Assembly (NCBI GenBank): GCA_038065415.1 | Contig: JBBTRA010000005.1 | Span: 8,079-72,078, forward strand | Direction: 5' to 3' | DNA from: Patescibacteria group bacterium | GTDB lineage: Bacteria > Patescibacteriota > Minisyncoccia > Phycocordibacterales > PALSA-1337 | Length of the DNA stretch: 64,000 nt | Translations under genes and position numbers: made by a program | Notes under the pieces: model-generated | The model's database searches: none | What the model was told of the DNA's origin: nothing | What the model saw: the letters and a program-made list of their open reading frames with translations, nothing else | Shown here: positions 3 through 17,776 of the stretch, one piece after another | Layout of the letters: each line of letters starts with the position of its first letter | Position numbering within the stretch: the first letter of the stretch is position 1

Positions 3-1457
3 ATGCAGATAGCTTATGAAGGTCGTCTCACTGATTCTGGAGGTAATCCACTCGGCGGAACGGGCACGGTTTATTGTTACCGTTTTTCCATATATGACGC
101 AGCCACTTCAGGAAACAAGCTCTGGCCTGCGAGTACGCCCACACAGACGACAGCTACTACTACTGACGGCGTTTTCAATGCAATCATCGGACAAGCTGAT
201 ACGCTCAGCTCGACCATCTTCGATTTTTCTACGACATCCACAGCTTTCCTTCAGGTTGAGGTTAATACGACAACTTCTACCTGTGGAGGTAGTTGGGAAG
301 CGCTCTTGCCTCGTCAGAGCGTCCTGTCATCGGGCTACGCACTCCAGTCAGCCAATGTCTATGGCGCGCTCCTCAAGACTGACACGGTCAACAATCGTGT
401 ACAGATCGGTACTGGAGCAGGTACACCATCTCCAGTTTATCTTGGTCTCGACTTCCGTAACGCGGCGGACTATGTTGGACAGTCGTGTTCAACGAACGGT
501 CTCATGTGGTACAACTCCGCCACATCCCAAGCACTTATTTGTGAAGCAGGTACGATCCAGAAGATAGGATCAACAGGAACGACGACGATCTCAGCTATCA
601 ATGCGAACTCAGGCACCCCAGCGAGCGCAGGAACGATCAACTTCGACAATGCGAATGGTGTGACATTCGGTATCAATGGTAATACGGTTACTGCGAGCGT
701 CAATGCGGGTGGGGGAGGTGGTAACATGACTAGATATATTCCTGTGTATCAGGGAAGTTCGGCGAGTCAAACACTCGGCGCGATGGGAGTCACCAGCGGA
801 TCAGCGATGTTCTATCCGATAAATATTTCCACAAATATCGCGTTCAATGTGGTCAATCTTGTTGAAAACGTATCGTATGCAACTTCATCGATCTCTGGTC
901 AACAGACCATAAGTAGCCGATTTGGTATCTACTCGAACAATGCAGGGACACTCTCCTTGATTTCAAGCAATAGCTACTCTTTTGCTGTAACTAATAGTAG
1001 CGTTTCAGCGACATTGTCGTATCCATCTGCGACAGGTACGGCGGGGTATACGTATACCACAGTGAGCGCCTCCACCACTGCGCAGATCCACTCACTGTTT
1101 GGTACTGTCGGCTCGCGTATATTCGGTCTACAGTTCGGTAACAGCATGAGCTTGAGTCAGGGCATGTACTGGCTCGGTATTCATGAACGTAGATCATCCT
1201 CAAGCGCGAACGTAGGTCTCTCAGCCGGTCTTGTGGGAAATGTTGTCAACTTTAATGTTGCAGGACGTCTCGGTAGTGGTTCGACAGCATATACGGGTAA
1301 CTATTCTCACCATCAGCCATTTTTTGGATTCGGTCCTTATACAAGTACAGCGTCGGCTGGGTATGGGGGTACGAACATACCGACATCAGCGTTTCTCTCT
1401 GGATTTGCCCACACGGCAACTATATTGCCGATGATGACCTTTGCGAGCACGACATAA
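3..1457 (+). CDS. Ser/Thr/Gly-rich surface protein, 5'-truncated fragment (window edge)
   Basis: The ORF runs to the window start. Composition is extremely biased (T, S, G, A, N) with low-complexity repeats. It lies upstream of a surface-protein cluster. No recognisable catalytic motif. Confidence 0.45.
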   Translation: MQIAYEGRLTDSGGNPLGGTGTVYCYRFSIYDAATSGNKLWPASTPTQTTATTTDGVFNAIIGQADTLSSTIFDFSTTSTAFLQVEVNTTTSTCGGSWEALLPRQSVLSSGYALQSANVYGALLKTDTVNNRVQIGTGAGTPSPVYLGLDFRNAADYVGQSCSTNGLMWYNSATSQALICEAGTIQKIGSTGTTTISAINANSGTPASAGTINFDNANGVTFGINGNTVTASVNAGGGGGNMTRYIPVYQGSSASQTLGAMGVTSGSAMFYPINISTNIAFNVVNLVENVSYATSSISGQQTISSRFGIYSNNAGTLSLISSNSYSFAVTNSSVSATLSYPSATGTAGYTYTTVSASTTAQIHSLFGTVGSRIFGLQFGNSMSLSQGMYWLGIHERRSSSSANVGLSAGLVGNVVNFNVAGRLGSGSTAYTGNYSHHQPFFGFGPYTSTASAGYGGTNIPTSAFLSGFAHTATILPMMTFASTT

Positions 1458-2214: not shown

Positions 2215-3195
2215 ATGAAAAAAATAATTATTATACAAGTGTCATTGATCGTCATTCTGTCGATTATGTTCTTGGTCTACTCTCGTAAAACTCCGGAGCA
2301 GCAACCTACGGTAGCCATCATCCCGTCCACATCTCTATCAGCAGATCGTACCGGCTACGAACGGTTCACATTGGTGAACCCAGCTGTTCGTGCGGATCTA
2401 GACAAGCATTACATAATCAATTTCAAAGATCTTCGTCAGCAATTGATCAGCATCCATGATAGGCAGAAGCATAAATCCTTTTTATATTTTGCGTATCTCA
2501 ACAATTCCTCATGGATCGGTCTGGAAGAAAAGGAGCTATTCCCCGCAGCAAGTACCGTGAAGGTACCTCTCGCCATGGCCATGTATCGCATGGAAGAGCA
2601 GGGAAAGATTGATCTTACGAAGACATATACACTCTCTGAACTCGATCTTGACGAGAATTTTGGCCAACTGTACAAAATAGGTTCTAATCAGAGTATTGCA
2701 GTGGAAGAACTCATCAGCATCATGCTTAAGTATTCTGACAATACTGCCATGAAAGCTGTTATCAGTGTTGCAGAACTTATCGGTATCAAAGATCCGCTCA
2801 AGGATGTATATGCTGCGATGGGGTGGGAATATAGCGATGTAACGAGCGATCAGGTTACATACATCAAGATCAATCTCAAGACGCTCTCGAATATGTTTAT
2901 TGCCCTGTATAATGCAAGTTATGTGAACATTGAGCATTCGCAACTGATCCTGGATCATCTGGCGAATACTGATTTTGATGAGATGATTGTTGCGGGTGTA
3001 CCGCAAAATATTACCGTTACCCATAAGATAGGAGTCAATGATCTCGAGTTGGCGTATTCTGATTGTGGGATAGTCTATGCTCCAAATCGTCCTTATATTA
3101 TGTGTGCGGGATCGTGGGGAGCACCCCCGAAAGATGCTCATAAGTTTATGAGTGAGTCATCCAAGGCTGTGTATGAATATGTTATAAATAATTGA
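2215..3195 (+). CDS. Membrane-anchored class-A beta-lactamase-fold serine hydrolase / PBP-like protein
   Basis: N-terminal TM helix. S-x-x-K motif in 'AASTVKVPLAMAMY'. S-D-N motif in 'KYSDNTA'. K-[TS]-G-like 'HKIGVND' triad motif. Confidence 0.6.
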   Translation: MKKIIIIQVSLIVILSIMFLVYSRKTPEQQPTVAIIPSTSLSADRTGYERFTLVNPAVRADLDKHYIINFKDLRQQLISIHDRQKHKSFLYFAYLNNSSWIGLEEKELFPAASTVKVPLAMAMYRMEEQGKIDLTKTYTLSELDLDENFGQLYKIGSNQSIAVEELISIMLKYSDNTAMKAVISVAELIGIKDPLKDVYAAMGWEYSDVTSDQVTYIKINLKTLSNMFIALYNASYVNIEHSQLILDHLANTDFDEMIVAGVPQNITVTHKIGVNDLELAYSDCGIVYAPNRPYIMCAGSWGAPPKDAHKFMSESSKAVYEYVINN

Positions 3196-3224
3196 CGATA
3201 CCAGTAAGTATATCCAGAAATAGC

Positions 3225-3773
3225 ATGAATAACCCATTCAAGAAAACAGAATCAAAAGGCATAAAGCTCGATGTCGCATGTGGGCAGAATAAGCGTGAAG
3301 GATTCGTTGGTGTGGATATTGCTCCGGGTCCTGGGGTGGACTTTGTATGGGACCTGGAAAAATATCCGTGGGAGCCGTTCAAAGACAATAGCGTTAAGGA
3401 GATCAATGTGGCTCATTATGCGGAGCACACCAAGGACTTGATGAAATTCATGGATGAGATTTATCGTATTTGTGAAGATGGGGCAAAGGTTACTATACAT
3501 GGACCATACTACACCTCTATCCGTTGTTGGCAGGACCCGACGCATACACGAGCTCTCTCAGAGGCGACCTGGCTCTACTATCAGAAGGGGTGGCGCGAAG
3601 CGAATAAGCTCTCGCACTATCCGATAGTGTGTGATTATGAGGTGACTAACATGGTGCTCTACTTCAATGAACCGTGGAACCAAAAATCAGAGGAGGCGAA
3701 GCAATTTGCAATCAAGCATTATTGGAATGTAGTTAGTGATATTATGGTCGAGCTCAAGGTGAAGAAGATATAG
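3225..3773 (+). CDS. Class I SAM-dependent methyltransferase
   Basis: Motif I 'LDVACGQN' (a DxGxGxG-like glycine loop) is followed by the acidic 'VGVDIAP' motif II. The ATG at 3225 lies inside the longer TTG-initiated ORF 3192-3773. Confidence 0.6.
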   Translation: MNNPFKKTESKGIKLDVACGQNKREGFVGVDIAPGPGVDFVWDLEKYPWEPFKDNSVKEINVAHYAEHTKDLMKFMDEIYRICEDGAKVTIHGPYYTSIRCWQDPTHTRALSEATWLYYQKGWREANKLSHYPIVCDYEVTNMVLYFNEPWNQKSEEAKQFAIKHYWNVVSDIMVELKVKKI

Positions 3774-3811
3774 CGTGAATAGTCCATGATCAAGAGAGAA
3801 TAACCAAGTAG

Positions 3812-4324
3812 ATGAGAAGAATTACCAAAAAAATAGAGGCACTGATTCGTACAAATACAGCACTCTTCTTTTTGTGCATCATTTCGATCGGTGTGTTGGT
3901 TTTGATATGGCGAGGACAAGGAGCGGGGGACAGACTAGAAAGTAATCAGGACTCTACAGCTCAAGTTCCTGTCGTCGCGGCTCTCAATGCTGGAGACCAG
4001 AAAAACGAGCAGGTTATCGCACCTGCTTTCAAGGGTATGCCCGACCCCGAGTCGTATACTTCGTTTGTGTACGAAGGTGAAGAGAGTCTGTCGGTGTCAA
4101 TCAAGTGTACTGATGATTTCAGTGTGGTGATGATATTCCCGATGGAGGTAGATTATCGTTCCGATGTGTTGTCAGCTCGGTACAATTCTGCGGAACCTTG
4201 TGTGAAAGGAGTGGCACGAACAGGGAAGATATCGATTCGTGGTTTTGGTCTTGAAGAGGGACATGAGTACTATGTAGTCAAAGCGAGTCAAGGAAAGAAG
4301 GGGATGTGGCACGATCCATACTAA
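3812..4324 (+). CDS. Hypothetical N-terminally membrane-anchored protein
   Basis: ORF with a single N-terminal hydrophobic helix (ALFFLCIISIGVLVLIW). No recognisable domain. Confidence 0.4.
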   Translation: MRRITKKIEALIRTNTALFFLCIISIGVLVLIWRGQGAGDRLESNQDSTAQVPVVAALNAGDQKNEQVIAPAFKGMPDPESYTSFVYEGEESLSVSIKCTDDFSVVMIFPMEVDYRSDVLSARYNSAEPCVKGVARTGKISIRGFGLEEGHEYYVVKASQGKKGMWHDPY

Positions 4325-4394
4325 CCCTTGATTGTGTGGCAAACTTGTGCGCGAGATATGCACTGAGGATACTCATGCTATATAATGAGAAGCA

Positions 4395-6386
4395 ATGAAA
4401 TCGAAAATCTTGCTCACCAGCTCTTTTCTTGCAGTATTCTGCGCTCTCGCTCTACCGTTCTCAGCGAAGGCAGCCATAACTGTAGGCAATGTATCGAGTT
4501 CGGGGGATCATTTTGGAGCATCATCGAGAACATGGGCCCATACTCACGCGGCCGGGTCTGATGGTGTGCTTATTGTGACATGTTCGACTTTTGGTACTGG
4601 AGGGGCGATGACCGCGACATTCAACGGAGAATCCATGACAGAGATTGGTCAGGCGCGCATAGGATCGCAGGAAGGAGTCATTGTATTCGTGCTGTTCAAT
4701 CCGTCAGTGACGACTGCGAACATCGTTTTCACTATACCTGATGGGGGTGACGGGGTTTGTGCGGGGCTGTCGGCATATGGTGTTTCCAACTCTGTCGATG
4801 CGTCTAATATCACGACGATAGGTAGCGCGGTCTACCCGATGACAGTTTCAGCATCGGCCTCGTCGCCGAGCAGTCTCGTTGTATCCATCTTCCAGTCAGT
4901 TGTATCTCCCAACGTGAGCGTACCAGGGTCTCAAACGGAGTTCGGTCTCGGGTGTGGTAATGATGGTAACAACTACTGCTTAAGCTCATATTCGTTGTCT
5001 TCTAGCGCAGGGACTCAGACTCATACATATAACAATGGTGCGGCGAGTGCTGACACGGGCGCTATTGGCATGATAATTCTCAAGGAGAGCGGTCAGTCAA
5101 CGCTACCGCCTCCATACGCTTCTTCAACGAGTTTCTTCATTACACATAGGATGCTGAATATTGCCGGCGGTAATCCTGCCAACTCTTTCAGTAGCTCGAC
5201 TACCTTCAGGCTTTTGGGTGCGGGAGGACAGACCGCTATCGGATCATCGACATCATCGACATTCGGTATCGAGAGCGGTTTTTTGAGGAACCTCTACAAA
5301 GGACCTGCGCCAATTTATACCCAGATGCACTATCATTGGCGCAATGATGATGGGTCCGAGACTACCGCCACTTCGAAGACTAGTGGTTCACAGGATGCTG
5401 TACTCAGTACACTCGATGAATCTACGGGTGTGCGACTCCGTCTACTGATAAGCAACGAAGGAGGGACTCGATTGGCATATGCACAACAGCAACTTCGACT
5501 CGAGTACGGTTTGAAGTCGACGACGTGCGCGGCGATATCATCATGGACTGACGTCGGGGGAGTTGGTGGGGATTGGGATATGTTCAGCTCCGCAAATCTC
5601 ACCGAAGGAGGAAATACAACCAACATAGCTGTGGCCACGGGGGGTGTCGCAAATGAGAATGCCACATTCGTGGCTTCCAATGGCGGCATCCGAGACACTA
5701 CGAGCCAAACCTCGTCTGTGCCGGTATCTAGTGATTCCTATATCGAGCTTGAATATTCGATTCAGGCACTTACCGCGGCGACCGATAATGGCACCTATTG
5801 TTTCCGGGTCACCAATGCGGGAAGTGCGACCAACTATGCCTATCGGGTATACCCTGAAGCGACGATATCTTCACCTCTATCACTTACATTTGTTGTAGAT
5901 GGAGCATCTCAAGCATTTTCAGCGGTAACTCCGGGCACGCTTGCCGCGACCTCGAGCATACTGACGGTCAAGACGACAAATCCAACCGGATTCATAGCTA
6001 CGGTGGAAAGATCCGATGCGACCGGCACAATGTCTTCAGGTGCATTCTATATCCCTGATAAGACGGCATGGGTTCCTGGTGTGGCGACGACGACGCCAGG
6101 TAATGCCACTGCATCAACGACTCAACCGCTAACTTTGCAGTTTCGTGTCCGACAAACGGGGACTGATGTACCGAATTACGCTTCTTCATGGTGGGGGACA
6201 GCAGATACCACAGCGAGCGCTCTCTTCGCTGGGTTCCCCTCAACAGCAAGCACAATAGTTAACAGGTCGACCCCGGCGGCCGCCACAACTACATCGTATG
6301 TGCTCTACAACTTGAATGTTCCAGTCACTCAGCAAACAGGGACATATTCTGGTGACATCATCTACACAGTGACTGCAAATCCATAA
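4395..6386 (+). CDS. Secreted Ser/Thr/Gly-rich surface protein with a C-terminal WxL-like/SCPU-like beta domain
   Basis: Clear signal peptide MKSKILLTSSFLAVFCALALPFSAKA. Low-complexity S/T/G-rich body. The C-terminal ~150 aa ('AWVPGVATTTPGNA...SWWGTADTTASALFAGF...TGTYSGDIIYTVTANP') is paralogous to the C-terminus of the next ORF. Confidence 0.6.
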   Translation: MKSKILLTSSFLAVFCALALPFSAKAAITVGNVSSSGDHFGASSRTWAHTHAAGSDGVLIVTCSTFGTGGAMTATFNGESMTEIGQARIGSQEGVIVFVLFNPSVTTANIVFTIPDGGDGVCAGLSAYGVSNSVDASNITTIGSAVYPMTVSASASSPSSLVVSIFQSVVSPNVSVPGSQTEFGLGCGNDGNNYCLSSYSLSSSAGTQTHTYNNGAASADTGAIGMIILKESGQSTLPPPYASSTSFFITHRMLNIAGGNPANSFSSSTTFRLLGAGGQTAIGSSTSSTFGIESGFLRNLYKGPAPIYTQMHYHWRNDDGSETTATSKTSGSQDAVLSTLDESTGVRLRLLISNEGGTRLAYAQQQLRLEYGLKSTTCAAISSWTDVGGVGGDWDMFSSANLTEGGNTTNIAVATGGVANENATFVASNGGIRDTTSQTSSVPVSSDSYIELEYSIQALTAATDNGTYCFRVTNAGSATNYAYRVYPEATISSPLSLTFVVDGASQAFSAVTPGTLAATSSILTVKTTNPTGFIATVERSDATGTMSSGAFYIPDKTAWVPGVATTTPGNATASTTQPLTLQFRVRQTGTDVPNYASSWWGTADTTASALFAGFPSTASTIVNRSTPAAATTTSYVLYNLNVPVTQQTGTYSGDIIYTVTANP

Positions 6387-6481
6387 TAATCATGGCATGT
6401 GGATAAGTTATGTCCGAATTTTTCGTTACAAGCGTGCTATAATTGCGGTATTGTATTATAAATAGCTATTTTATCATCCTC

Positions 6482-7168
6482 ATGTCACTCTACACGTTCT
6501 TTTCCCGCAAGAGCTTAGCTCGCGATATCGTCACTTCGTTCGTGGTTACAGCGACCCTGTTCTCATCGATCATCTATGCAGTACAGGTCAACGCTGCAGC
6601 GGTCACTCTCACGGCGACGGTCTCTACCTCGCTCACCTTCACGACCTCGTCCAGCCAGTTCGGTACTGTGACACCGGGAACGATCGCATGGGCAACCACG
6701 ACGCTGGATGTGCTCACGAACGACACTGCGGGATGGTTCGTCACCCTCTCTGGTGACAACAAAACATCGGTTAACAATAACCTCCAGACTGTTGGTAACG
6801 CAGCCTCCTTCACCGATCAGACAGAGTGGGTTCCTGGAGCCGCTACTACCACGACTGGTAACGCTGTTGTCCGCGCATCTCTCGTCAACTCGGGCAATGT
6901 CCTCGCATTCCGCGTCATGACGGCATCGAGCTCGAATGGAACAGTCTTCACGGCTCCGAGCTGGTGGGGAACAACCGATGCTGATGGTACAGCTCGATTC
7001 GCGGGTATATCAAGCTCGACTGTTCAGCGTCAGATTGGTTACGCGGGAACAGGTTCATACAGCGCATCGAACCATATCAACACCGTACAGTACTATCTCC
7101 TTGCTTCAGCTAGCCAGCCAACCGGCTCGTACAGTGCGCCCTTGACATATACTGCCACAGGCAACTAA
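6482..7168 (+). CDS. Small secreted protein carrying the same C-terminal WxL-like/SCPU-like domain
   Basis: Signal-peptide-like N-terminus (start chosen at ATG 6482 inside the longer ORF 6443-7168). 'EWVPGAATTTTGNA...SWWGTTDADGTARFAGI...TGSYSAPLTYTATGN' aligns with the C-terminus of 4395-6386. Confidence 0.55.
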   Translation: MSLYTFFSRKSLARDIVTSFVVTATLFSSIIYAVQVNAAAVTLTATVSTSLTFTTSSSQFGTVTPGTIAWATTTLDVLTNDTAGWFVTLSGDNKTSVNNNLQTVGNAASFTDQTEWVPGAATTTTGNAVVRASLVNSGNVLAFRVMTASSSNGTVFTAPSWWGTTDADGTARFAGISSSTVQRQIGYAGTGSYSASNHINTVQYYLLASASQPTGSYSAPLTYTATGN

Positions 7169-7178
7169 ACTGCACCTT

Positions 7179-8114
7179 ATGACACTACGCTCCGCTTTCT
7201 CTGGTGTTCTGGTCGCCGGCATCGTCGGCTTGCTCTCCTTGGCGTTCATCTCGGTGCCTCAGTATGCACATGCGGGGACTGGCTTGACGATACAGCCGAT
7301 CAAGATATCTCAGACCATGAAACCGGGCGACTCCGTTTCGGGTAAGATACTCCTTTCCAATGCGAGTGAGGATGATGTGGTTGTGGACATATCCATACAG
7401 GACTTCATCCCGACAGCTGGCACAGAGACTTTCCAGTTCGTTGGAAGGGCACCAGGTGTCACCACGGTGCGCGATTGGATCAGCTTCGATGGGACCAAGG
7501 ATCAGTTCATATTCAAGAAAGGGGAGGCGCGCGAGATACCGTATACGATCCAAGCGCCCGCGAGCGCAGAGCCAGGTAGTCATTTTGGAGTACTCTTCTT
7601 CAAGGCTACTCGCGTACAGGATGCTGAAGCTCAGATCAAGGTTGGCACTCAGGTGGGTGTGCTCGTATTCGTGACTGTTCCAGGAAAATTCGAGCAGAAG
7701 GGCACGATCACCAAGTTCGGGGTACCATCGTTCGTGCAGTCAGGACCAGTTCCTTTCACGATGACATTCGAGAATCAGGGTACGGTCCATTTTGAGCCAA
7801 AAGGTACCATCGAAATTACGAATACATTTGGTACGAAGGTCGGATCAGTTCCTATCGAGGGATATGCGGTGCTTCCTACGGGAATAAAGGCAATGAATTT
7901 TGGTTGGCATGTGAATGGTCTTTTGCTCGGTAGATACAATGCAACAGCATCCGTGTATGATGTCGACGGCAATCTCTTGTCGACCGCATCCGCAAATTTC
8001 TATGCAGTGCCTATCTGGTACATGGTTGGATTTATCGTCACACTTCTTGTCATCTTCTTCCTCATCAGATTTGTTAAGACTCGACTCAAATTCAGCATCA
8101 GCCTCAAAAAATAG
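7179..8114 (+). CDS. DUF916/DUF3324-like cell-surface protein with C-terminal TM anchor (putative partner of WxL-like proteins)
   Basis: Signal peptide (…SVPQYAHA). A beta-rich ectodomain. A C-terminal hydrophobic helix 'WYMVGFIVTLLVIFFLI' is followed by the basic tail 'RFVKTRLKFSISLKK'. It sits immediately after the two paralog-domain genes, as in Gram-positive WxL loci. Confidence 0.45.
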   Translation: MTLRSAFSGVLVAGIVGLLSLAFISVPQYAHAGTGLTIQPIKISQTMKPGDSVSGKILLSNASEDDVVVDISIQDFIPTAGTETFQFVGRAPGVTTVRDWISFDGTKDQFIFKKGEAREIPYTIQAPASAEPGSHFGVLFFKATRVQDAEAQIKVGTQVGVLVFVTVPGKFEQKGTITKFGVPSFVQSGPVPFTMTFENQGTVHFEPKGTIEITNTFGTKVGSVPIEGYAVLPTGIKAMNFGWHVNGLLLGRYNATASVYDVDGNLLSTASANFYAVPIWYMVGFIVTLLVIFFLIRFVKTRLKFSISLKK

Positions 8115-8126
8115 CCTTGATTATGG

Positions 8127-9611
8127 ATGAAAAAACTCGCTTCACTCATTATCATAGCCGCGGTACTGATACCCCTCAGTCTGTACGCAAATAGTTTCAA
8201 CCTGACCCTCACCTTCTGTAACGGTCTTGATTGTGGAGATGTGACTGCGCCAAGTACTCCGACAAACCTCGAAGCAGAAGCGGTATCAACCTCGCAGATC
8301 AATCTCTCGTGGGATGCATCCATCGACCCTGGATTTCCGGCGCTGGGAATTCTTGGGTACAAGATATACCGCAACGGAGGGGGGACGGAGGTGGCGACTA
8401 CTACAGGTCTTTCATATTCGGATACAGGACTCGCTGATGGGACGCTTTACACATATACAGTGAGTGCGTTCGATGGTGCGTATAATGAAAGCGCTCAGAG
8501 CTCGAGTGTTTCTACTACTACACTATCTGTCCCTTCGGTCGCTCCAAATGCTTCGAATGGATCTCCTTCGGGAACTTTTGCGGCGGGAACAACAGAAACA
8601 ACATTGTCTCTGGCCACTGATATCGCTGCGACATGCAAGTATGGCACAGTTGCTGATACCGCATATGCGGCATTACCAAATACATTCAGTACCACAGGCG
8701 GCACCGCTCATTCGAAGCTTCTCAGTGGACTGGCGAATGGAGTGACGTATACATACTATGTTCGCTGTCAGAGCACCACGAATGTGGCTATGACAAGTGA
8801 TTATACTATCTCCTTTGCGGTAGCATCTGCTCCCGTCAGAGTACCTGGAGGTGGTGGTGGAGACAAAGATGAGTTGCCCTTGAGCCAGGTCAATGTCATC
8901 GTGCGAGGTATCGCCTATCCTGGTAGTACGATCAATCTCCTCAAAGATGGCTTGGCTGTAGCTAGCACCCAGGCTGGGCCTGATGCAAATTTCGAGATTC
9001 AGCTCTCTGGTGTAGGTTCGGGCACATTTACATTTAGCGTTTGGGCTATGGATTCTCAAGGCGTTCGCTCGACACTCTATCCGTTCACTGTCACCTTGAC
9101 GAGCGGAGTTACAACTGTGATCGGCGGAGTTTTCATACCTCCGACGGTCAGTCTCGATCTCTCCACTGTCAAACGGGGAGACCCTCTGCGCGTGCTGGGA
9201 CAGACGGTACCCAATGCTACGGTTTCGCTCATATTCCATTCTGATACCGAGATCATAGATCAGGTGGCAGCAGATGCTCGGGGAGTCTGGAATTATGTCC
9301 TCGATACGCTCAAGCTGGAGTACGGAGATCATACAGCGCAAGCTCGAGCGGCAAAGGCTACGGATATCAGCACCCTCTCCAAGACGCTTTCATTCAAGGT
9401 CGGCACAGTGAATATTCCGGTCAAAAAAGAAACAAGCGCCTTAATAGGCGACTATAATGCGGACAAAAAGGTTGACCTCGTCGACTTCAGTATCATGTTG
9501 TACTGGTATAAGCGCCCACTTGCAACTACGGCGCCACCGGTTGATCTCAATCGTGATGGAAAGCTCGACCTCGTCGACTTCAGTATCTTTGCTTATCATT
9601 GGACGGGCTAA
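8127..9611 (+). CDS. Secreted fibronectin-III / Ig-like surface protein with C-terminal dockerin repeats
   Basis: Signal peptide. FN3 hallmark 'EAEAVSTSQINLSWDAS…YKIYRNG…YTYTVSAFDGAYNES'. Two Ca-binding dockerin-type repeats at the C-terminus: 'DYNADKKVDLVDFSIMLYW' and 'DLNRDGKLDLVDFSIFAYHW'. Confidence 0.6.
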   Translation: MKKLASLIIIAAVLIPLSLYANSFNLTLTFCNGLDCGDVTAPSTPTNLEAEAVSTSQINLSWDASIDPGFPALGILGYKIYRNGGGTEVATTTGLSYSDTGLADGTLYTYTVSAFDGAYNESAQSSSVSTTTLSVPSVAPNASNGSPSGTFAAGTTETTLSLATDIAATCKYGTVADTAYAALPNTFSTTGGTAHSKLLSGLANGVTYTYYVRCQSTTNVAMTSDYTISFAVASAPVRVPGGGGGDKDELPLSQVNVIVRGIAYPGSTINLLKDGLAVASTQAGPDANFEIQLSGVGSGTFTFSVWAMDSQGVRSTLYPFTVTLTSGVTTVIGGVFIPPTVSLDLSTVKRGDPLRVLGQTVPNATVSLIFHSDTEIIDQVAADARGVWNYVLDTLKLEYGDHTAQARAAKATDISTLSKTLSFKVGTVNIPVKKETSALIGDYNADKKVDLVDFSIMLYWYKRPLATTAPPVDLNRDGKLDLVDFSIFAYHWTG

Positions 9612-9615
9612 TACC

Positions 9616-10536
9616 ATGCACAAACTCCTTCTTCTTATCACTATACTTCTTGTTCCGCATGCTGCTTTTGCAGCTGTGATCTCTTTTGATCCACAGGAGA
9701 CCACGGTAGGGATGAGTACACCGTTCTTGGTCGGCATCACTATCGATTCAGACACACCCGTCAACACCATCCGTGGCGTCATCGATGTGCCCGAATCTAT
9801 GGAGGTGGTCGATGCGTCGGATGGAAATTCAATCATCAATCTTTGGATCGAACGTCCATATATCAACGATGCACGCCAACTGGTATTCTCAGGCATCGTT
9901 CCGGGTGGATTCGAGGGGTATCGCGGCAAGCTTCTTACACTCACCATCCAGGCAAAAAGGGAAGGTGTCGCCCGCTTCATCGTCAATCCGTCTTCACGCA
10001 TATATAAGAATGATGAATCCGCATCACCACAGCCCATAATATCGCGCCCGCTCGATCTCCGGGTGTCGGCAGGAAGGGATAATATATCGAATGAGATTCC
10101 TGATACCGCTTTGCCAGAACGATTCATGCCGGTGGTCGCTCTCATACCCGATGGGTCATCAGACACTCAGGCGACCTCGTCGATCGAGTCTGGACACTGG
10201 GCGGTCTCTTTTGTGGCTCAGGACAAAGGATCGGGCATCGCCGGGTATGCAGTAGCTGAATCCTTCTCCAGGATCGAACCTGCAGATGAACGGAAAGTTC
10301 GTCGGCTGTCCTGGAGAGATGCAGAGAGTCCGTATGTATTGGCAGATCAGAGACTTTCTTCGTATGTGTATGTGAAGGCGATCGACAAGGAGGGGAATGT
10401 CCGTATCGAACGCCTCGATCCTCAACAGCCACGCCCGTGGTATAGAACGGCGTTAGGTTATATACTTATAGCACTTATAGCTCTCATCATCCTCAATGCA
10501 CTCCGTACCCGCATCAATATCAGCCGAAGGAAATAG
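9616..10536 (+). CDS. Cohesin-domain protein, C-terminally membrane-anchored
   Basis: Signal peptide MHKLLLLITILLVPHAAFA. Start taken at ATG 9616, just after the stop of the previous gene; the ORF track's 9457 start overlaps that gene. Cohesin-like beta-sandwich segment 'ISFDPQETTVGMSTPFLVGITIDSDTPVNTIRGVIDVPESMEVVDASDGNSIINLWIERPY…'. C-terminal TM 'LGYILIALIALIILNAL'. Confidence 0.55.
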   Translation: MHKLLLLITILLVPHAAFAAVISFDPQETTVGMSTPFLVGITIDSDTPVNTIRGVIDVPESMEVVDASDGNSIINLWIERPYINDARQLVFSGIVPGGFEGYRGKLLTLTIQAKREGVARFIVNPSSRIYKNDESASPQPIISRPLDLRVSAGRDNISNEIPDTALPERFMPVVALIPDGSSDTQATSSIESGHWAVSFVAQDKGSGIAGYAVAESFSRIEPADERKVRRLSWRDAESPYVLADQRLSSYVYVKAIDKEGNVRIERLDPQQPRPWYRTALGYILIALIALIILNALRTRINISRRK

Positions 10537-11947
10537 GTCATCTATCAGTGCACTCCTCCGTCTCGTGGTGGGGGGTCTATGTGCTCTCATCATCGTCCTT
10601 AGCGGGTTTGTCCAAGCTGACGCCGCCACACTCACACTTTCCCCGGTGACGGGGGCTGATTCATATGGTGTCGGTACACTCTTTTCAGTGAATGTCATAG
10701 TTTCGACATCACAAGCGGAGTCCATGAATGCAGTCTCGGGCACAGTCTTGTACCCAAAAAATCTGCTCGAGCTAGTATCTGTCGATAAGATTGGGAGCAT
10801 CATCAATTTTTGGATTGGCGAACCAGTGTATTCCAATGCTACCGGTCAAGCTCAGTTTGAGGGAGGAGTATATAATCCAGGATTCACCGGAGCTCAGGGC
10901 AAGATTGTAACCATGCTCTTCAGAGCCAAGGCCGCAGGTACTGCGGACATATCATTTGAAAATGCATCCATTTTGGCCAATGATGGTTTGGGTACCAACA
11001 TACTCTCACAGAGTAAGCCTGTGCGTCTTTCGATCCGGGCTGCCGTCCAAGAACCGCGCATAGAGCCTGGCGTGACTATCGCTGTCCGTTCTGCGACGCA
11101 TCCTGATCAGTCTGTGTGGTATGCCTCGAACATGGCGCTATTCACCTGGACGGTACCCGCGGGTGTGACGGCGATTCGTACGAGTTATGATCAGAACTCG
11201 CAGTCGACACCAACCCAGTCGCAGAGCATCGATACTCCCGAGACGACAGTTACTCTGACGGATGGGACGTGGTATTTCCATATTCAAGGCCGTGATGCAA
11301 AAGGATGGGGTCCCGTAACTCATTATCGTGTGCAGATCGACATGAGTGCGGTCAATCCTCCGGTGTTCGATCGATTCCCCGCACTCCTTACCGAAGGTGA
11401 TGTATTGCTCATATCAGGATCGGCAGTGAAGAACTCTACGGTAAAACTCTATCTTCGAGGGGGTTCTGGTTATGCAGCTGAACAGAGTACTCGCACGGGT
11501 GAAGATGGTAGATTCCAGGCGGTCTGGAATGCACAGCTCGAAAATGACACCTATGCTCTCAGTGCTGATGTCACAACTTCTCGCGGCCTGATCAGCAAGC
11601 GCAGTGCAGATCGTCCGATCATGGTCCAACCGACGACACTCGAACGTGTCACCAAGCCTGTTCTCAACTACGCACTCATATTCGCTGTCCTTGTAGGTAT
11701 AGCCTTCCTCTGTGCGCTTTGGACTTGGTATCTCTTGCATGGGTTCGGTCGTTTCCGTAAGAAGATCAAGGCAGATGTCAGGAAGACCAACCAGCTCATC
11801 CATGTCGAGTTCAAGAAATTGCTCGAACGCGCACATAGCAGGCGTAAGTTGACAGCAGAAGAGGAGAGGATGATGTCGATCATACGGGAGAATATTCATG
11901 AAGCAGAAGAAGAGATTGAGAAGGATGTGAAGGAAATAGGGCAGTAA
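10496..11947 (+). CDS. Cohesin-domain protein, C-terminally membrane-anchored (paralog)
   Basis: Segment 'LTLSPVTGADSYGVGTLFSVNVIVSTSQAESMNAVSGTVLYPKNLLELVSVDKIGSIINFWIGEPVY' is paralogous to the 9616 and 25086 proteins. C-terminal TM 'ALIFAVLVGIAFLCALWTWYLL' is followed by a charged cytoplasmic tail. The true start may be the GTG at about 10564. Confidence 0.5.
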   Translation: MHSVPASISAEGNRSSISALLRLVVGGLCALIIVLSGFVQADAATLTLSPVTGADSYGVGTLFSVNVIVSTSQAESMNAVSGTVLYPKNLLELVSVDKIGSIINFWIGEPVYSNATGQAQFEGGVYNPGFTGAQGKIVTMLFRAKAAGTADISFENASILANDGLGTNILSQSKPVRLSIRAAVQEPRIEPGVTIAVRSATHPDQSVWYASNMALFTWTVPAGVTAIRTSYDQNSQSTPTQSQSIDTPETTVTLTDGTWYFHIQGRDAKGWGPVTHYRVQIDMSAVNPPVFDRFPALLTEGDVLLISGSAVKNSTVKLYLRGGSGYAAEQSTRTGEDGRFQAVWNAQLENDTYALSADVTTSRGLISKRSADRPIMVQPTTLERVTKPVLNYALIFAVLVGIAFLCALWTWYLLHGFGRFRKKIKADVRKTNQLIHVEFKKLLERAHSRRKLTAEEERMMSIIRENIHEAEEEIEKDVKEIGQ

Positions 11948-12000
11948 AAAACATAATCTAGCAAGTAGACATTGCAAAACCGTTCACATACAATAGCTTC

Positions 12001-13812
12001 ATGAAACGACGGGCGCGCCCGCAGAATGGCAGACATGGAAGCACCAAGGCGAAGAAACATTCGCAGCGCATATTGAAGCCCCACCACAAATACATATTCG
12101 TCGTCGGAGGTGTCATGTCCGGCGTGGGTAAGGGCGTGGCCACTTCGTCTATCGGTACACTCTTGGCCGCAAAAGGTTGGACGGTCAATCTTGCGAAGGT
12201 AGATCCATATCTCAATGTGGATGCCGGTACTATGAACCCGACCGAGCACGGGGAAGTCTTCGTGCTCGACAATGGTCTCGAGACTGATCAGGACATGGGC
12301 AACTATGAGCGCTTCCTCAACCGCGACCTGACGGGCGATGACTACATCACCAGCGGCATGGTCTACAAGCATGTGATCGAGAAGGAGCGTGCTCTCGGCT
12401 ATGGCGGCAAATGTGTTGAGGCCATACCTCATATCCGCGATGAGATCGTCAGACGTTTTGAACACAGTGCCAAGGTCAACAAATCCGACATCTCTATCAT
12501 CGAGATTGGGGGAACGGTGGGCGACTACCAGAACATCATGTTCATAGAAGCGGCTCGTGTGCTCAAGATCCGTCATCCCAATGATGTGATCTTTATTATG
12601 GTCTCGTATCTACCAGTGCCGGGTACGCTGGGTGAGATGAAGACTCGTCCGACCCAGAATGCCGTGCATCAGTTGGCTTCATATGGCGTGACTGCAGACA
12701 TCATCATCGCCCGTGCAGATATGCCGCTCGATGATCGCCGCAAAGAGAAGATCGCAGTCGCATGCAATCTTCCCGCAAAGAGAGTCATCTCGGCTCCTGA
12801 TATCGAGAGCATCTATGATGTGCCGATCAATTTTGAACGCGACCGTCTCGGTGATATTGTGCTCGAGGCTTTGAATGTGCCGTTCGGCGAGCGCTCGGGT
12901 GCGCTCAAGGATGAACCGCTCATCTCCATGGATGCATGGAAGAAGATGACCAAAGGTATCAAGAACTATGTCGATAAGCCACTCAAGATAGCAATCGTGG
13001 GAAAATATTTTAATACAGGAGATTTCGTGCTGACAGATGCATATATCTCAGTCTTGGAAGCAATCAAATTTTCGGGATATGCGGCACAGGTGAAGCCAAT
13101 CATTCATACTGTCAATGCGAGAGACTTCGAAAAGGGGTCTGTTGGCGATGCTGCATATGCCAAGCTCGACGAGATGGATGGGGTCATCGTTCCGGGTGGA
13201 TTTGGCGAGAGCGGTATCGAAGGTAAGCTCAATGTGATCAGATATTGCCGCGAAAACAAGATACCGTATTTCGGCCTTTGTTATGGTATGCAACTCATGA
13301 CTATCGAGTACGCCCGCAATGTACTTGGGCTCGCCGGTGCACACACAGCGGAAATAGACCCGAAGTCGCCGCATCTCATTATCGATATCATGCCCGATCA
13401 AAAGAAGAAGATTGCTACGGGAGACTACGGGGGCTCGATGCGTCTCGGTTTGTATCCTGCCAAGTTGACCAAAGGATCGGTTGCACAGGAGGCGTATTCA
13501 CAGTTTGCTGGCAAGCCGCTTCCGCGCCCGACGACGGTCATCAGGGAACGACATCGCCATCGCTATGAGGTCAATCCGAAGTATATCGATCGTATCGAAA
13601 AGGGAGGACTCGTATTCTCGGGCAAGTCTCCTGATGGAACCCTCATGGAGATTGCTGAGTTGCCGCGCACAGAACATCCGTTTTTCCTGGGCACCCAGTT
13701 TCACCCAGAATTCCTCGCTCGACCACTCATGCCACATCCGTTGTTCACCGAATTTTTGAAGGCAGCAAAGATAAAAAAGGGGAAGGTGGTTGTTACAGAA
13801 AATATCGGGTAA
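12001..13812 (+). CDS. pyrG: CTP synthase
   Basis: Canonical N-terminal synthetase motifs 'KYIFVVGGVMSGVGKGV…NVDAGTMNPTEHGEVFVLDNGLETDQDMGNYERFL'. C-terminal class-I glutamine amidotransferase domain with catalytic Cys in 'GLCYGMQ' and the GATase 'HPEF' motif. Unusual ~30-aa basic N-terminal extension; a TTG at ~12072 is an alternative start. Confidence 0.9.
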   Translation: MKRRARPQNGRHGSTKAKKHSQRILKPHHKYIFVVGGVMSGVGKGVATSSIGTLLAAKGWTVNLAKVDPYLNVDAGTMNPTEHGEVFVLDNGLETDQDMGNYERFLNRDLTGDDYITSGMVYKHVIEKERALGYGGKCVEAIPHIRDEIVRRFEHSAKVNKSDISIIEIGGTVGDYQNIMFIEAARVLKIRHPNDVIFIMVSYLPVPGTLGEMKTRPTQNAVHQLASYGVTADIIIARADMPLDDRRKEKIAVACNLPAKRVISAPDIESIYDVPINFERDRLGDIVLEALNVPFGERSGALKDEPLISMDAWKKMTKGIKNYVDKPLKIAIVGKYFNTGDFVLTDAYISVLEAIKFSGYAAQVKPIIHTVNARDFEKGSVGDAAYAKLDEMDGVIVPGGFGESGIEGKLNVIRYCRENKIPYFGLCYGMQLMTIEYARNVLGLAGAHTAEIDPKSPHLIIDIMPDQKKKIATGDYGGSMRLGLYPAKLTKGSVAQEAYSQFAGKPLPRPTTVIRERHRHRYEVNPKYIDRIEKGGLVFSGKSPDGTLMEIAELPRTEHPFFLGTQFHPEFLARPLMPHPLFTEFLKAAKIKKGKVVVTENIG

Positions 13813-15392: not shown

Positions 15393-15501
15393 ATGTCGAT
15401 CCTTTGGTTGTGCGTTGTGCCTGCGTTTGCTTGTTTTATACTCTTTTTTGGGGTATTCTGCAAGGTACGCCGTTTCGGGCTTTTTTACATATATAGATAT
15501 T

Positions 15502-15570
15502 GCGGGATCGTCTAATGGTAGGACACAGCTCTCTGAAAGCTGGTATCTTGGTTCGAGTCCAAGTCCCGCA
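15502..15570 (+). tRNA. tRNA-Gln (anticodon CTG)
   Basis: Cloverleaf folded by hand. Acceptor GCGGGAT pairs with GTCCCGC, with discriminator A. D-arm TCT/GGA. Anticodon stem CAGCT/AGCTG with loop CTCTGAA, giving anticodon CUG. T-arm CTTGG-TTCGAGT-CCAAG. No CCA is encoded. Confidence 0.8.
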
Positions 15571-16887: not shown

Positions 16888-16978
16888 ATTAAATCGCGTA
16901 GATGGTTAAACGAGAAGGTCCTGAAATATGGCCATTACTGTCTTAACTTTAAAACCCCTTCATTACTCGCGGCTCACC

Positions 16979-17537: not shown

Positions 17538-17776
17538 GCGCCTATTTTACTTCCTATGCGAAATAGTTGCCACTCCTGGCAAATCCACCCCTCTTCACTC
17601 AGTTCCACATATCATCGATACTACCGGAATGATATAACAGGAACCAATCAGACAAGGTGAAGGAAGGGGACATACAGACGCTTCGAAAGAAGTGGTAGAT
17701 TGCTCTTATCAATTTATCATTTGTATTGTATAATGTTCGAACGTCGTCCTTATAACCCAGCCAACTTGAGATAGGT

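What the first reader, a model, noticed from the sequence alone, without database searches (positions are those of the whole stretch)
4395..8114. WxL-locus-like trio: two secreted proteins share a novel C-terminal domain, followed by a DUF916-like C-terminally anchored protein
The 663-aa and 229-aa secreted proteins end in clearly paralogous domains of about 140 aa. Both carry E/AWVPG(A/V)ATTT(T/P)GNA, SWWGT(A/T)D, a (A/R)FAG(F/I) motif, and a final [LI]-x-Y-T-x-T-x-N strand. The next gene encodes a signal-peptide protein with a single C-terminal TM plus a basic tail. This large-WxL / small-WxL / DUF916 arrangement is the canonical Firmicutes WxL surface-complex locus. Here the WxL motifs are replaced by W-W-G and Y-T-x-T, and the genome context does not look Firmicutes-like. 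It may be a previously undescribed, distant WxL-type or SCPU-like non-covalent cell-wall-binding system.
Basis: partly seen in the sequence, partly recalled or inferred. Interest (0 to 1): 0.65.

Follow-up and report, generated by a model that had tools for sequence, protein, structure and literature searches.

The report
Divergent usher-less Pam-type pilus operon
This is a conserved six-gene surface-fibre operon of an ultrasmall groundwater bacterium (Patescibacteria): a stripped-down relative of the newly described "Pam" pilus, and its membrane-anchored helper protein turns out to belong to the same family as the WxL-interacting proteins of Firmicutes.

Summary
The 663-aa and 228-aa secreted proteins share a paralogous C-terminal domain of about 175 aa (E = 3e-15). 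The next gene encodes a protein with a signal peptide, two Ig-like domains and a C-terminal TM helix.

The "DUF916-like" call is right. The third protein is a remote homolog of Firmicute WxLIP (hhalign 96-99%). 88 of 124 relatives hit PF06030, and Foldseek matches the WxLIP crystal structure and PapD-type pilus chaperones at about 1e-10.

The shared domain is not detectably a WxL domain (hhalign 1-8%, control level). It is homologous to the C-terminal pilin domain of the CPR "Pam" pilus (hhalign 96%; weak NCBIfam NF058581 hits in 106 of 119 members). A relative of the third protein sits beside a bona fide PamT and Pam pilin.

Best reading: a minimal, usher-less, chaperone-assisted donor-strand-exchange pilus, with a variable large tip protein, a small shaft pilin carrying a conserved AVTLTVTV donor strand, and a membrane-anchored chaperone.

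The conserved unit is six genes (4395-11947). It also holds a dockerin protein with the same N-terminal strand motif and two membrane cohesin proteins, a plausible anchor.

This is a new variant of a very recently described kind. No assembly step has been shown experimentally or by structural modelling.

The parts
4395..6386 (+). Large secreted protein (663 aa), the candidate tip or adhesin subunit. Signal peptide 4395-4472. N-terminal module with no family match 4473-5876. C-terminal Pam-pilin-like domain 5877-6383.
   Evidence: ORF. Domain shared with the small protein: BLASTP E = 3e-15, family HMM E = 1.9e-23. No Pfam or NCBIfam family. In related loci the equivalent protein varies from about 340 to 1500 aa but keeps the C-terminal domain. 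It lacks the conserved alternating strand before the domain, as the published tip subunit PamT does.
6482..7168 (+). Small secreted protein (228 aa; the longest ORF starts at TTG 6443), the candidate shaft pilin. Signal peptide 6482-6595. Candidate donor strand AAVTLTATVSTS 6596-6631. Pam-pilin-like domain core 6632-7165.
   Evidence: NCBIfam NF058581 CPR_Pam_pilin_C at E = 1.8e-5, covering model positions 2-147 of 148 but below the cutoff. 106 of 119 family members hit it. hhalign against bona fide Pam pilins gives 96-97.5%, E = 1.6e-9 to 2.9e-11, over 158 columns. The N-terminal strand is conserved (V41 97%, L43 98%, V47 94%) and aligns to the Pam pilin linker region. AF2 pLDDT 82.5. The best Foldseek hits are weak but are donor-strand-exchange fibre subunits.
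7179..8114 (+). Membrane-anchored two-Ig-domain partner (311 aa), of the WxLIP / PamC-PamD / PapD-like chaperone type. Signal peptide 7179-7274. Domain 1 7275-7688. Domain 2 7689-8009. TM helix 8013-8084. Basic tail 8085-8111.
   Evidence: AF2 pLDDT 91. Foldseek: CfaA chaperone 7e-11, WxLIP 8e-11 and 2e-10 (best TM-scores, 0.45/0.52), Caf1M/FimC/CsuC 1e-9 to 1e-7. hhalign against Firmicute WxLIP 96.2% and 99.3%. Relatives hit PF06030. A relative (P0340) lies next to a bona fide PamT and Pam pilin.
8127..9611 (+). Secreted 494-aa protein: pilin-like N-terminal strand (NSFNLTLTF), fn3, Big_6/Ig domains and a C-terminal dockerin. Candidate pilus terminator and anchor adaptor.
   Evidence: Pfam fn3 at 1e-8, Big_6, Dockerin_1 at 18.6 bits. 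Homologs pass the Dockerin_1 cutoff at 29.0 and 25.9 bits against 22.9. Conserved directly after the partner gene in 25 of 28 loci. The mature N-terminus of homologs is x-T-L-T-V-T-V in 26 of 38, the same motif as the small pilin's N-terminus (101 of 119), against a background of 0.03 per 100 aa.
9616..10536 (+). 306-aa protein: signal peptide, cohesin-like domain, second domain and a C-terminal TM helix. Candidate membrane anchor for the dockerin protein.
   Evidence: N-terminal domain paralogous to the next gene's cohesin domain: 31% identity over 156 aa, E = 8e-12. Conserved in 25 of 28 loci. Start taken from the public gene call and the Met at 9616.
10496..11947 (+). 483-aa protein: signal peptide, cohesin domain, Big_13 Ig domain, TM helix and a charged cytoplasmic tail. 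Candidate membrane anchor. It overlaps the previous gene by 41 nt.
   Evidence: Weak Cohesin and Big_13 hits in the window protein. Homologs pass the Cohesin cutoff (36.3 bits against 24.1) and Big_13. Conserved in 25 of 28 loci.

Best explanation
The cluster 4395-11947 most likely encodes a minimal, divergent Pam-type pilus of a Parcubacteria/Paceibacteria-like CPR bacterium. This is an usher-less surface fibre built by chaperone-assisted donor-strand exchange.

Proposed mechanism (all steps inferred):
1. All six products are exported by Sec.
2. The 311-aa protein stays in the membrane through its C-terminal helix. Its two Ig-like domains cap the incomplete Ig-like pilin domain of newly exported subunits by lending a beta-strand.
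3. The 228-aa protein is the shaft subunit. Its conserved mature N-terminus (A-V-T-L-T-V-T-V) replaces the chaperone strand in the groove of the preceding subunit, so subunits polymerise head to tail.
4. The 663-aa protein has the acceptor domain but no conserved donor strand, and its N-terminal module is lineage-variable. It would therefore sit at the tip as the adhesin.
5. The 494-aa protein has the donor-strand motif but no acceptor domain. It would end the fibre and tie it, through its dockerin, to the two membrane-anchored cohesin proteins, a role analogous to PamR.

Shown here: the homologies, the domain architectures, the conserved gene order and the conserved strand motifs. Not shown: strand donation, polymerisation, the order of subunits and the dockerin-cohesin anchoring.
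For: Pilin domain:
- NF058581 'Pam pilus system pilin subunit' is the only consistent NCBIfam hit. It covers the full model length, in the window protein and in 106 of 119 homologs.
- hhalign of the family against 70 bona fide Pam pilin/PamT sequences gives 96-97.5%, E down to 2.9e-11, over 158 columns.
- Foldseek's best hits, though weak, are TasA fibre, Fim/Csu pilins and cannulae.

Partner protein:
- PapD-like chaperones and WxLIP match at E about 1e-10.
- It has a C-terminal TM helix, as described for PamC/PamD (bioRxiv 10.64898/2026.03.03.709456).
- Its relative P0340 (E = 2e-44 to the family profile) lies immediately downstream of a PamT equivalog (306 bits against a cutoff of 240) and a Pam pilin (174 bits against 55).

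Donor strand:
- The alternating hydrophobic N-terminus is conserved in small proteins only.
- It aligns with the inter-domain linker of a Pam pilin.
- It is absent from PamT and from the large proteins.

Operon:
- Synteny holds in 33 of 33 loci upstream and 25 of 28 downstream.
- Intergenic gaps are 10-12 nt around the partner gene.
- The same strand motif sits at the N-terminus of the dockerin protein.
- Dockerin and cohesin assignments pass Pfam cutoffs in homologs.
- An ATP synthase operon follows the cluster in L005, matching the published Pam neighbourhood.
Against: - The window proteins do not reach NCBIfam's curated cutoffs (24.9 bits against 55), and the large protein has no direct Pam hit.
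- The small pilin has one domain, whereas the structurally characterised PamA/PamB have two.
- There is only one chaperone-like gene and no RbmA-like TM terminator.
- In the monomer model the proposed donor strand is not assigned as a strand by DSSP, although its pLDDT is about 92.
- Foldseek matches of the pilin model are individually non-significant (best E = 8e-3, TM 0.3-0.5).
- No filament has been seen in any organism carrying this subfamily.
- The partner protein also resembles RbmA (E = 7e-10, but TM only 0.25/0.32), so an anchor role rather than a chaperone role is not excluded.
- The basic residues conserved in the close family (K42, R90, K142) are not conserved across the wider family. 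That differs from the invariant Arg8/Lys112 of PapD-type chaperones (own knowledge).
Confidence: 0.68

Rival explanations
1. A WxL-type, non-filamentous surface-display complex. The 311-aa WxLIP homolog, fixed in the membrane, binds the shared C-terminal domain of both secreted proteins by strand insertion and simply tethers them, and the variable N-terminal module of the large one, at the cell surface. There is no polymerisation.
For: - The partner is homologous to Firmicute WxLIP over both domains (99.3%), and its structure matches WxLIP best by TM-score.
- The gene arrangement (one large, one small, one WxLIP-like) is the commonest WxL cluster type (PMC10599100).
- The weak collinear alignment of the pilin domain with WxL domains puts the GW.L and LTW.L motifs opposite GW.V and LTYTA.
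Against: - The shared domain is significantly related to Pam pilins, which do form filaments, and not to WxL domains.
- The small protein and the dockerin protein share a conserved N-terminal strand motif. This model gives that motif no role.
- CPR cells lack the thick wall that WxL domains are thought to bind (own knowledge).
Confidence: 0.17
2. A Pam-type pilus with the roles swapped. The small single-domain protein is a PamT-like tip cap, and the large protein (N-terminal module, linker and C-terminal domain, as in PamA/PamB) is the polymerising shaft subunit.
For: - Published Pam shaft pilins have two domains, and the published tip pilin PamT has one domain of similar size.
- One member of the small-protein family weakly hits the PamT model.
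- Large proteins keep a faint hydrophobic pattern before the domain (positions 43 and 47).
Against: - PamT lacks the alternating strand that the small protein has.
- The small protein's strand aligns with the linker of a Pam shaft pilin.
- Large proteins vary from about 340 to 1500 aa, and the corresponding segment is poorly conserved or gapped.
- The small gene is the near-universal one (32 of 33 loci against 27 of 33).
Confidence: 0.1
3. The shared domain is an unrelated beta-sandwich, for example a carbohydrate-binding or wall-binding module. The neighbouring two-Ig membrane protein is functionally independent, and the resemblance to pilus systems is coincidental.
For: Some Foldseek hits of the small-protein model are to glycoside-hydrolase accessory domains at E = 0.09-0.3. 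No curated family cutoff is passed by the window proteins themselves.
Against: - Profile-profile homology to Pam pilins is 96-97.5%, while reversed controls give 0.2-0.3%.
- Synteny with the partner holds in 33 of 33 loci.
- A homologous partner sits in a bona fide pam operon.
Confidence: 0.03

Closest known systems
Pam pilus of Candidatus Mycosynbacter amalyticus and other CPR bacteria (bioRxiv 10.64898/2026.03.03.709456; NCBIfam NF058579 PamT, NF058581 CPR_Pam_pilin_C)
   Same: - CPR-restricted and Sec-exported, with no usher.
- The pilins end in a truncated Ig-like C-terminal domain homologous to the domain shared here (hhalign 96-97.5%).
- The chaperone-like protein has two Ig domains and a C-terminal TM helix, and it is homologous to the one found next to a bona fide PamT and pilin.
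- A conserved strand precedes the C-terminal domain.
- ATP synthase genes are adjacent in a related locus.
   Different: - The shaft candidate has a single domain (strand plus C-terminal domain, no 9-strand N-terminal domain).
- There is one chaperone-like gene instead of PamC plus PamD.
- There is no PamT equivalog and no RbmA-like TM terminator.
- The tip candidate carries a large, lineage-variable module.
- A dockerin protein and two cohesin membrane proteins are conserved in the operon, and the preprint does not mention such proteins.
- Scores fall below the NCBIfam cutoffs.
- The lineage is Parcubacteria/Paceibacteria-like, whereas the preprint found Pam mainly in Saccharimonadia and Microgenomatia.
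WxL clusters of Firmicutes (two WxL proteins plus WxLIP = DUF916/PF06030 + DUF3324/PF11797 + TM helix; PMC10599100; PDB 9i1y, 9i25)
   Same: - The partner protein is a remote homolog of WxLIP over both domains, with the same signal peptide, two Ig domains and C-terminal TM architecture.
- The gene logic is the same: one large and one small secreted protein sharing a C-terminal domain.
- AlphaFold2 predicted that a WxLIP strand inserts into the WxL domain, which is the same principle as chaperone strand donation.
   Different: - There is no detectable WxL domain (no PF13731 hit; hhalign at control level).
- The NQIDKxxxYFDLK motif is absent, and the first ~20 positions of PF06030 are never matched.
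- The organism is a CPR bacterium.
- The small protein carries a conserved N-terminal donor-type strand.
- The extra dockerin and cohesin genes are present.
Chaperone-usher pili of Gram-negative bacteria (Fim, Pap, CFA/I, Caf1, Csu/SCPU)
   Same: - The partner protein has the PapD-like two-Ig-domain fold (Foldseek E = 7e-11 to 1e-7).
- The pilin model's best matches include FimA/F/G/I and CsuE.
- The two-domain tip adhesin and the shaft pilin with an N-terminal extension follow the same logic.
   Different: - There is no usher and no outer membrane.
- The chaperone is membrane-anchored.
- There is no Pfam PapD_N, PapD_C, Fimbrial or SCPU hit.
- No invariant basic pair is evident across the wider family.
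Usher-independent donor-strand fibres (Bacillus TasA, PDB 8aur; Pyrodictium cannulae, PDB 9h8b)
   Same: The TasA fibre is the top Foldseek hit of the small-protein model (E = 8e-3), and cannulae are in the top ten. They are extracellular fibres held together by strand complementation without an usher.
   Different: The matches are weak (TM about 0.3). As far as I know (own knowledge), those systems have no membrane-anchored two-Ig chaperone. There is no sequence relationship.
Cohesin-dockerin anchoring (cellulosome-type)
   Same: A secreted protein with a C-terminal type I dockerin is encoded next to membrane-anchored cohesin-domain proteins.
   Different: There are no glycoside hydrolases. 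The dockerin protein starts with a pilin-type strand motif. The cohesin carriers are anchored by a TM helix rather than by SLH domains or sortase.

Membership tests
Pam pilus system (CPR) | The pilin C-terminal domain passes the curated NCBIfam model NF058581 (CPR_Pam_pilin_C, cutoff 55 bits). | tested here: not met
   Small protein: 24.9 bits, E = 1.8e-5, model positions 2-147 of 148. Large protein: no hit. 106 of 119 homologs hit, but the best E-value is only 2.8e-7.
Pam pilus system (CPR) | The pilin C-terminal domain is homologous to bona fide Pam pilins (profile-profile comparison). | tested here: met
   hhalign A2 against A5 gives 96.0% (E = 4.6e-9). Trimmed alignments give 96.3% and 97.5% (E = 1.6e-9 and 2.9e-11) over 158-159 columns. 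The reversed control gives 0.2-0.3%.
Pam pilus system (CPR) | A conserved donor (linker) strand lies immediately N-terminal to the C-terminal domain. | tested here: met
   In the small protein, A-V-T-L-T-V-T-V is conserved at 94-98% at the hydrophobic positions. It aligns to residues 188-196 of a 364-aa Pam pilin, ahead of that pilin's C-domain. This is sequence-level evidence only. Actual strand donation was not tested.
Pam pilus system (CPR) | Shaft pilins have two domains (a 9-strand N-terminal sandwich plus the C-terminal domain). | tested here: not met
   The small protein has a single domain (AF2). The large protein has an N-terminal region, but that region is unrelated and variable between loci.
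Pam pilus system (CPR) | A FimC/PapD-like chaperone with a C-terminal TM helix is encoded in the operon. | tested here: met
   AF2 shows two Ig domains plus a TM helix. Foldseek matches CfaA, Caf1M, FimC and CsuC at 7e-11 to 1e-7. A homolog lies next to a PamT equivalog and a Pam pilin.
Pam pilus system (CPR) | A PamT tip pilin and an RbmA-like TM terminator (PamR) are present. | tested here: not met
   The window proteins give no PamT hit. There is only one two-Ig TM paralog per locus. A dockerin protein carrying the strand motif may substitute for PamR, but this is inferred.
Pam pilus system (CPR) | The subunits assemble into extracellular filaments by donor-strand exchange. | not testable with these tools
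   This needs multimer prediction, cryo-EM/ET or biochemistry.
WxL cluster (Firmicutes) | A WxLIP is present: DUF916 (PF06030) + DUF3324 (PF11797) + TM helix. | tested here: met
   This holds by remote homology only. The window protein itself has no Pfam hit at E <= 1. hhalign against 52 Firmicute WxLIPs gives 96.2% (close family) and 99.3% (wider family) over both domains. 88 of 124 relatives hit PF06030, and P0328 reaches 32 bits against a cutoff of 27.3. Foldseek matches 9i1y and 9i25.
WxL cluster (Firmicutes) | The conserved N-terminal motif NQIDKxxxYFDLK is present in DUF916. | tested here: not met
   The window protein has GLTIQPIKISQTMKPGD at that place. PF06030 positions 1-20 are not matched in any of the relatives inspected.
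WxL cluster (Firmicutes) | At least two proteins carry a WxL domain (PF13731, dual W-x-L motif). | tested here: not met
   There is no PF13731 hit at E <= 1 in the window proteins or in neighbours of relatives. There are no W-x-L motifs at the expected places, which hold GW(F/N)V and LTYTA instead.
WxL cluster (Firmicutes) | The shared domain is remotely homologous to the WxL domain. | tested here: inconclusive
   hhalign gives 0.9-7.9% probability, with P = 0.06 (window family) and 0.005 (Pam pilins), against 0.24-0.57 for reversed controls. The alignments are collinear over 135-141 columns with three motif blocks in register. The WxL chain of 9i25 is not among the top 50 Foldseek hits.
WxL cluster (Firmicutes) | Non-covalent binding to peptidoglycan. 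| not testable with these tools
   This needs biochemistry.
Chaperone-usher pili | A PapD-like chaperone (Pfam PapD_N/PapD_C) and an outer-membrane usher are present. | tested here: not met
   Fold similarity only. There are no PapD Pfam hits. None of the six conserved genes hit any usher family in Pfam or NCBIfam, and CPR cells have no outer membrane (own knowledge).
SCPU / Csu pilin (PF05229) | A match to the SCPU domain model. | tested here: not met
   No hit at E <= 1. There is only a weak Foldseek match to CsuE (E = 0.035).
Cohesin-dockerin pair | Dockerin_1 (PF00404) and Cohesin (PF00963) domains are present in adjacent genes. | tested here: met
   The window proteins are below the cutoffs (18.6 bits against 22.9; 11.2 against 24.1). 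Their syntenic homologs pass: Dockerin at 29.0 and 25.9 bits, Cohesin at 36.3 bits. The two membrane proteins share the cohesin domain (E = 8e-12). Binding itself was not tested.

The most novel reading that the evidence does not exclude
The WxL clusters of Firmicutes and the Pam pili of CPR bacteria are two branches of one ancient monoderm system. In it, a membrane-anchored two-Ig protein (WxLIP = PamC/D type) completes, by strand donation, the incomplete fold of secreted subunits that share a C-terminal domain. On this reading the WxL domain is a diverged Pam-type pilin domain, and WxL proteins are assembled or anchored by donor-strand complementation. In the Parcubacteria branch, the fibre is additionally terminated by a protein that carries the donor strand at one end and a dockerin at the other, and that plugs into membrane cohesins. 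This mode of pilus anchoring has not been described.
Probability: 0.35. Interest if true: 0.8.

Novelty: new variant of a known kind. Interest (0 to 1): 0.58.

Why it matters
- CPR/Patescibacteria are thought to live attached to host cells, and the Pam pilus, first described in 2026, is one of the few surface structures known for them at molecular level. This locus shows that a stripped-down version is widespread in Parcubacteria-type lineages, where curated models do not detect it. The partner-protein family has 11,875 representatives at 50% identity.
- The variable large protein is a natural candidate for host-recognition specificity.
- The membrane-anchored Pam-type chaperone belongs to the same family as WxLIP (DUF916/DUF3324). 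No paper in the searchable library makes that link. It offers a concrete, testable mechanism, strand complementation, for WxL clusters, whose assembly is still poorly understood.
- The conserved dockerin protein with a pilin-type strand, together with two membrane cohesins, suggests a new way of anchoring a fibre to a cell that has no outer membrane.

Tried and rejected
- Direct Pfam scans for WxL (PF13731), DUF916 (PF06030), DUF3324 (PF11797), SCPU (PF05229) and PapD found nothing at E <= 1 in the window proteins.
- Single-sequence and profile searches against PDB sequences found nothing meaningful.
- Literature searches for 'Pam pilus', 'PamA' and 'PamT' found nothing. The preprint was found through 'donor strand' plus 'Candidate Phyla Radiation'.
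- The promoter and terminator scan of 3500-12500 was at chance level (11 found against 9.5 expected; 6 against 5.2). It says nothing about operon boundaries.
- The third protein as an RbmA-like PamR was considered and ranked lower, because TM-scores to RbmA are 0.25/0.32 against 0.45/0.52 for WxLIP and 0.36/0.48 for CfaA.
In the only, weak, alignment the first WxL motif lies opposite GW(F/N)V.
- A carbohydrate-binding-module reading was rejected (see rivals).

Full report
**1. Observation**

BLASTP of the first two gives 36% identity over about 175 aa, E = 3e-15, and shows all the listed motifs. A profile of 119 small-protein homologs (alignment A2) finds the C-terminus of the large protein at E = 1.9e-23. 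The shared region runs from the strand 'SLTF' (aa 495 of the large protein, aa 51 of the small one) to the C-terminus. That makes it about 170-180 aa rather than 140. The window is a Patescibacteria contig from Hainich groundwater.

**2. The third protein**

Direct Pfam and NCBIfam scans find nothing. The AF2 model (mean pLDDT 91) has a signal-peptide helix, two beta-sandwich domains and a C-terminal TM helix.

Foldseek against the PDB gives 469 hits at E <= 1e-3. The list is headed by the CFA/I chaperone CfaA (7e-11) and the crystal structures 'WxLIP from Enterococcus faecium' 9i1y and 9i25 (8e-11 and 2e-10; best TM-scores, 0.45/0.52). Then come RbmA (7e-10, TM only 0.25/0.32) and many PapD-type chaperones (Caf1M, FimC, SfaE, CsuC).

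An exhaustive profile search shows a very large family: 11,875 representatives at E <= 1e-3 and 6,450 at <= 1e-10. Of 124 members at 23-45% identity, 88 hit PF06030 (WxLIP_PGBD, formerly DUF916). The best E-value is 4.9e-11, and one member passes the gathering cutoff. The hits always cover profile positions about 21-119 and never the first 20. UniRef already calls a CPR2 member 'DUF916 domain-containing protein'.

I fetched 68 genuine Firmicute loci using the published WxLIP motif NQIDKxxxYFDLK (PMC10599100) and extracted 59 WxLIP and 84 WxL proteins. hhalign of the window family against these WxLIPs gives 96.2% (E = 2.5e-9, 222 columns). The wider CPR family gives 99.3% (E = 1.6e-20, 228 columns over both domains). 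Cross-controls give 0.1-3%.

**3. The shared domain**

The only family signal is NCBIfam NF058581 'CPR_Pam_pilin_C, Pam pilus system pilin subunit'. In the window protein it scores E = 1.8e-5 and 24.9 bits against a cutoff of 55, but it covers the full model length. 106 of 119 homologs hit the same model.

The system behind that model is described in a 2026 preprint (bioRxiv 10.64898/2026.03.03.709456):
- Cryo-EM of Ca. [quoted passage not shown]
- PamT is a single-domain tip pilin without a linker strand.
- PamC/PamD are FimC/PapD-like chaperones that, unusually, carry a C-terminal TM helix.
- PamR is an RbmA-like, TM-anchored terminator with an extra N-terminal strand.
- There is no usher, and ATP synthase genes lie nearby.

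I tied the window to this system in two ways.

First, P0340, a relative of the third protein (E = 2e-44 to its profile), lies directly downstream of a PamT equivalog (306.5 bits, cutoff 240) and of a pilin with CPR_Pam_pilin_C (174.5 bits, cutoff 55). Other distant loci show weaker Pam hits in the same positions, and two or three paralogs of the partner.

Second, an alignment of 70 bona fide Pam pilin/PamT sequences (A5) matches the window family at 96-97.5% (E down to 2.9e-11, 158 columns). The reversed control gives 0.2-0.3%.

The AF2 model of the small protein (pLDDT 82.5) has only weak PDB matches, but they are the TasA fibre, Fim/Csu pilins and Pyrodictium cannulae.

Against real WxL domains there is no Pfam hit. 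hhalign gives 0.9-7.9% (P = 0.06 and 0.005), against 0.24-0.57 for reversed controls. The alignments are collinear and put three motif blocks in register. I call this suggestive but inconclusive.

**4. Donor strand and roles**

In the small-protein family the mature N-terminus is A-V-T-L-T-V-T-V. V41, L43 and V47 are 94-98% conserved and alternate with Thr. Mean column entropy there is 1.07 bits, against 2.66 in the signal peptide.

hhalign places this segment opposite 'QITVSASV' of a 364-aa Pam pilin. That segment lies between the pilin's N-terminal domain and the start of NF058581, which is the linker region. PamT has nothing comparable before its core strand, and neither do the large proteins. 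In the large proteins the equivalent positions are poorly conserved and often gapped.

The large proteins also vary from about 340 to 1500 aa. One reaches 1108 aa in L004, and giants of more than 3000 aa sit at the same place in L005 and L010. The small gene is nearly universal (32 of 33 loci).

I therefore take the small protein as the shaft pilin and the large one as a tip adhesin. This is the arrangement known from FimH/PapG-type adhesins (own knowledge). It is inference.

**5. The unit is six genes**

In 33 of 33 evaluable metagenome loci, a gene with the shared domain lies directly upstream of the partner gene. In 25 of 28 loci, homologs of the next three window genes follow in the same order, whereas the upstream genes are never conserved (0 of 24).
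- The 494-aa protein has fn3 and Big_6 domains and a dockerin. Homologs pass the Dockerin_1 cutoff.
- The 483-aa protein has a cohesin domain (homologs pass the cutoff), an Ig domain, a TM helix and a charged tail.
- The 306-aa protein shares the cohesin domain (E = 8e-12) and also ends in a TM helix.

Unexpectedly, the mature N-terminus of the dockerin-protein family is x-T-L-T-V-T-V. Column frequencies are L 33/38, T 29/38, V 24/38, T 31/38 and V 26/38. This is the same motif as the small pilin's N-terminus (strict motif in 26 of 38 and 101 of 119; background 0.03 per 100 aa).

A protein with a donor strand but no acceptor domain is what a terminator should look like. PamR is described with the same logic: an N-terminal strand, FnIII domains and a membrane anchor. 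Here the membrane anchor would be supplied in trans by dockerin-cohesin binding. The preprint mentions neither dockerin, cohesin nor DUF916. This part is a hypothesis.

**6. Comparison and novelty**

The locus works most like a Pam pilus and is homologous to it in both the pilin domain and the partner. It still fails several features of the described system: the curated score cutoffs, two-domain shaft pilins, two chaperones, PamT and PamR. I file it as a new variant of that kind.

It is not a WxL cluster, because it has no WxL domain and no NQIDK motif. Its partner protein, however, is a true remote WxLIP homolog. That homology also implies that the chaperone-like proteins of pam operons belong to the WxLIP/DUF916 family. 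I found this link in no searchable paper.

The unifying reading, in which WxL and Pam systems share ancestry and mechanism, remains open. The partner homology, the gene logic and the published AlphaFold2 prediction of WxLIP strand insertion into WxL speak for it. The lack of significant subunit-domain similarity speaks against it.

**7. Limits**

Noticed in passing
window 8127-11947: Three genes downstream of the reported trio are conserved with it in the same order in 25 of 28 related loci: a dockerin protein with fn3/Big_6 domains and two TM-anchored cohesin proteins. The dockerin-protein family starts, after its signal peptide, with the same L-T-V-T-V motif as the small pilin.
   Followed up: yes
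L005 11633-16918: In a related locus, the F-type ATP synthase operon follows the cluster directly. This matches the ATP synthase neighbourhood reported for pam operons. In the window itself CTP synthase (12001-13812) follows instead.
   Followed up: partly
L008 1678-7311; L011 4465-7928: More distant CPR loci carry two or three tandem or nearby paralogs of the WxLIP-like partner (516, 488 and 362 aa; 354 and 310 aa). This recalls PamC/PamD/PamR, whereas the window's subfamily has only one.
   Followed up: partly
window 15501-20100: A low-GC stretch (0.37-0.38 against about 0.50) begins right after the only tRNA gene in the window, tRNA-Gln(CTG) at 15501-15572. It encodes a coiled-coil membrane protein, small membrane proteins and a 321-aa protein of unknown function. 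It may be an integrated island.
   Followed up: no
window 3-1457 (540 aa in full on L001 2657-4279) and L001 218-1972: Upstream lie large Gly/Ser/Thr-rich secreted-looking proteins with no family match. Further genes between them and the cluster include a class A beta-lactamase-like gene (2215-3195; PF13354 on L001). None of the upstream genes tested (3192-4324) is conserved next to the cluster in related loci.
   Followed up: partly
window 10496-10536: The 306-aa and 483-aa cohesin genes overlap by 41 nt if the longest ORF of the second gene is used. The true start of the 483-aa gene may lie further downstream.
   Followed up: no
L096 4819-7056: In one related locus, the stop-to-stop ORF holding the cohesin gene also carries, in frame at its 5' end, a 23S rRNA-intervening-sequence protein (bAvd-like) domain (PF05635, E = 4.5e-37). 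It is probably a separate small gene inserted there.
   Followed up: no
L009 6059-6817; L007 258-1349; L010 9070-9837: The N-terminal part of PamT-like proteins has repeated S-x-N-Y/G-rich segments. It gives partial PamT-model hits (6e-10 and 4e-11) in otherwise different proteins of distant loci, so it may be a separate, mobile N-terminal module.
   Followed up: no
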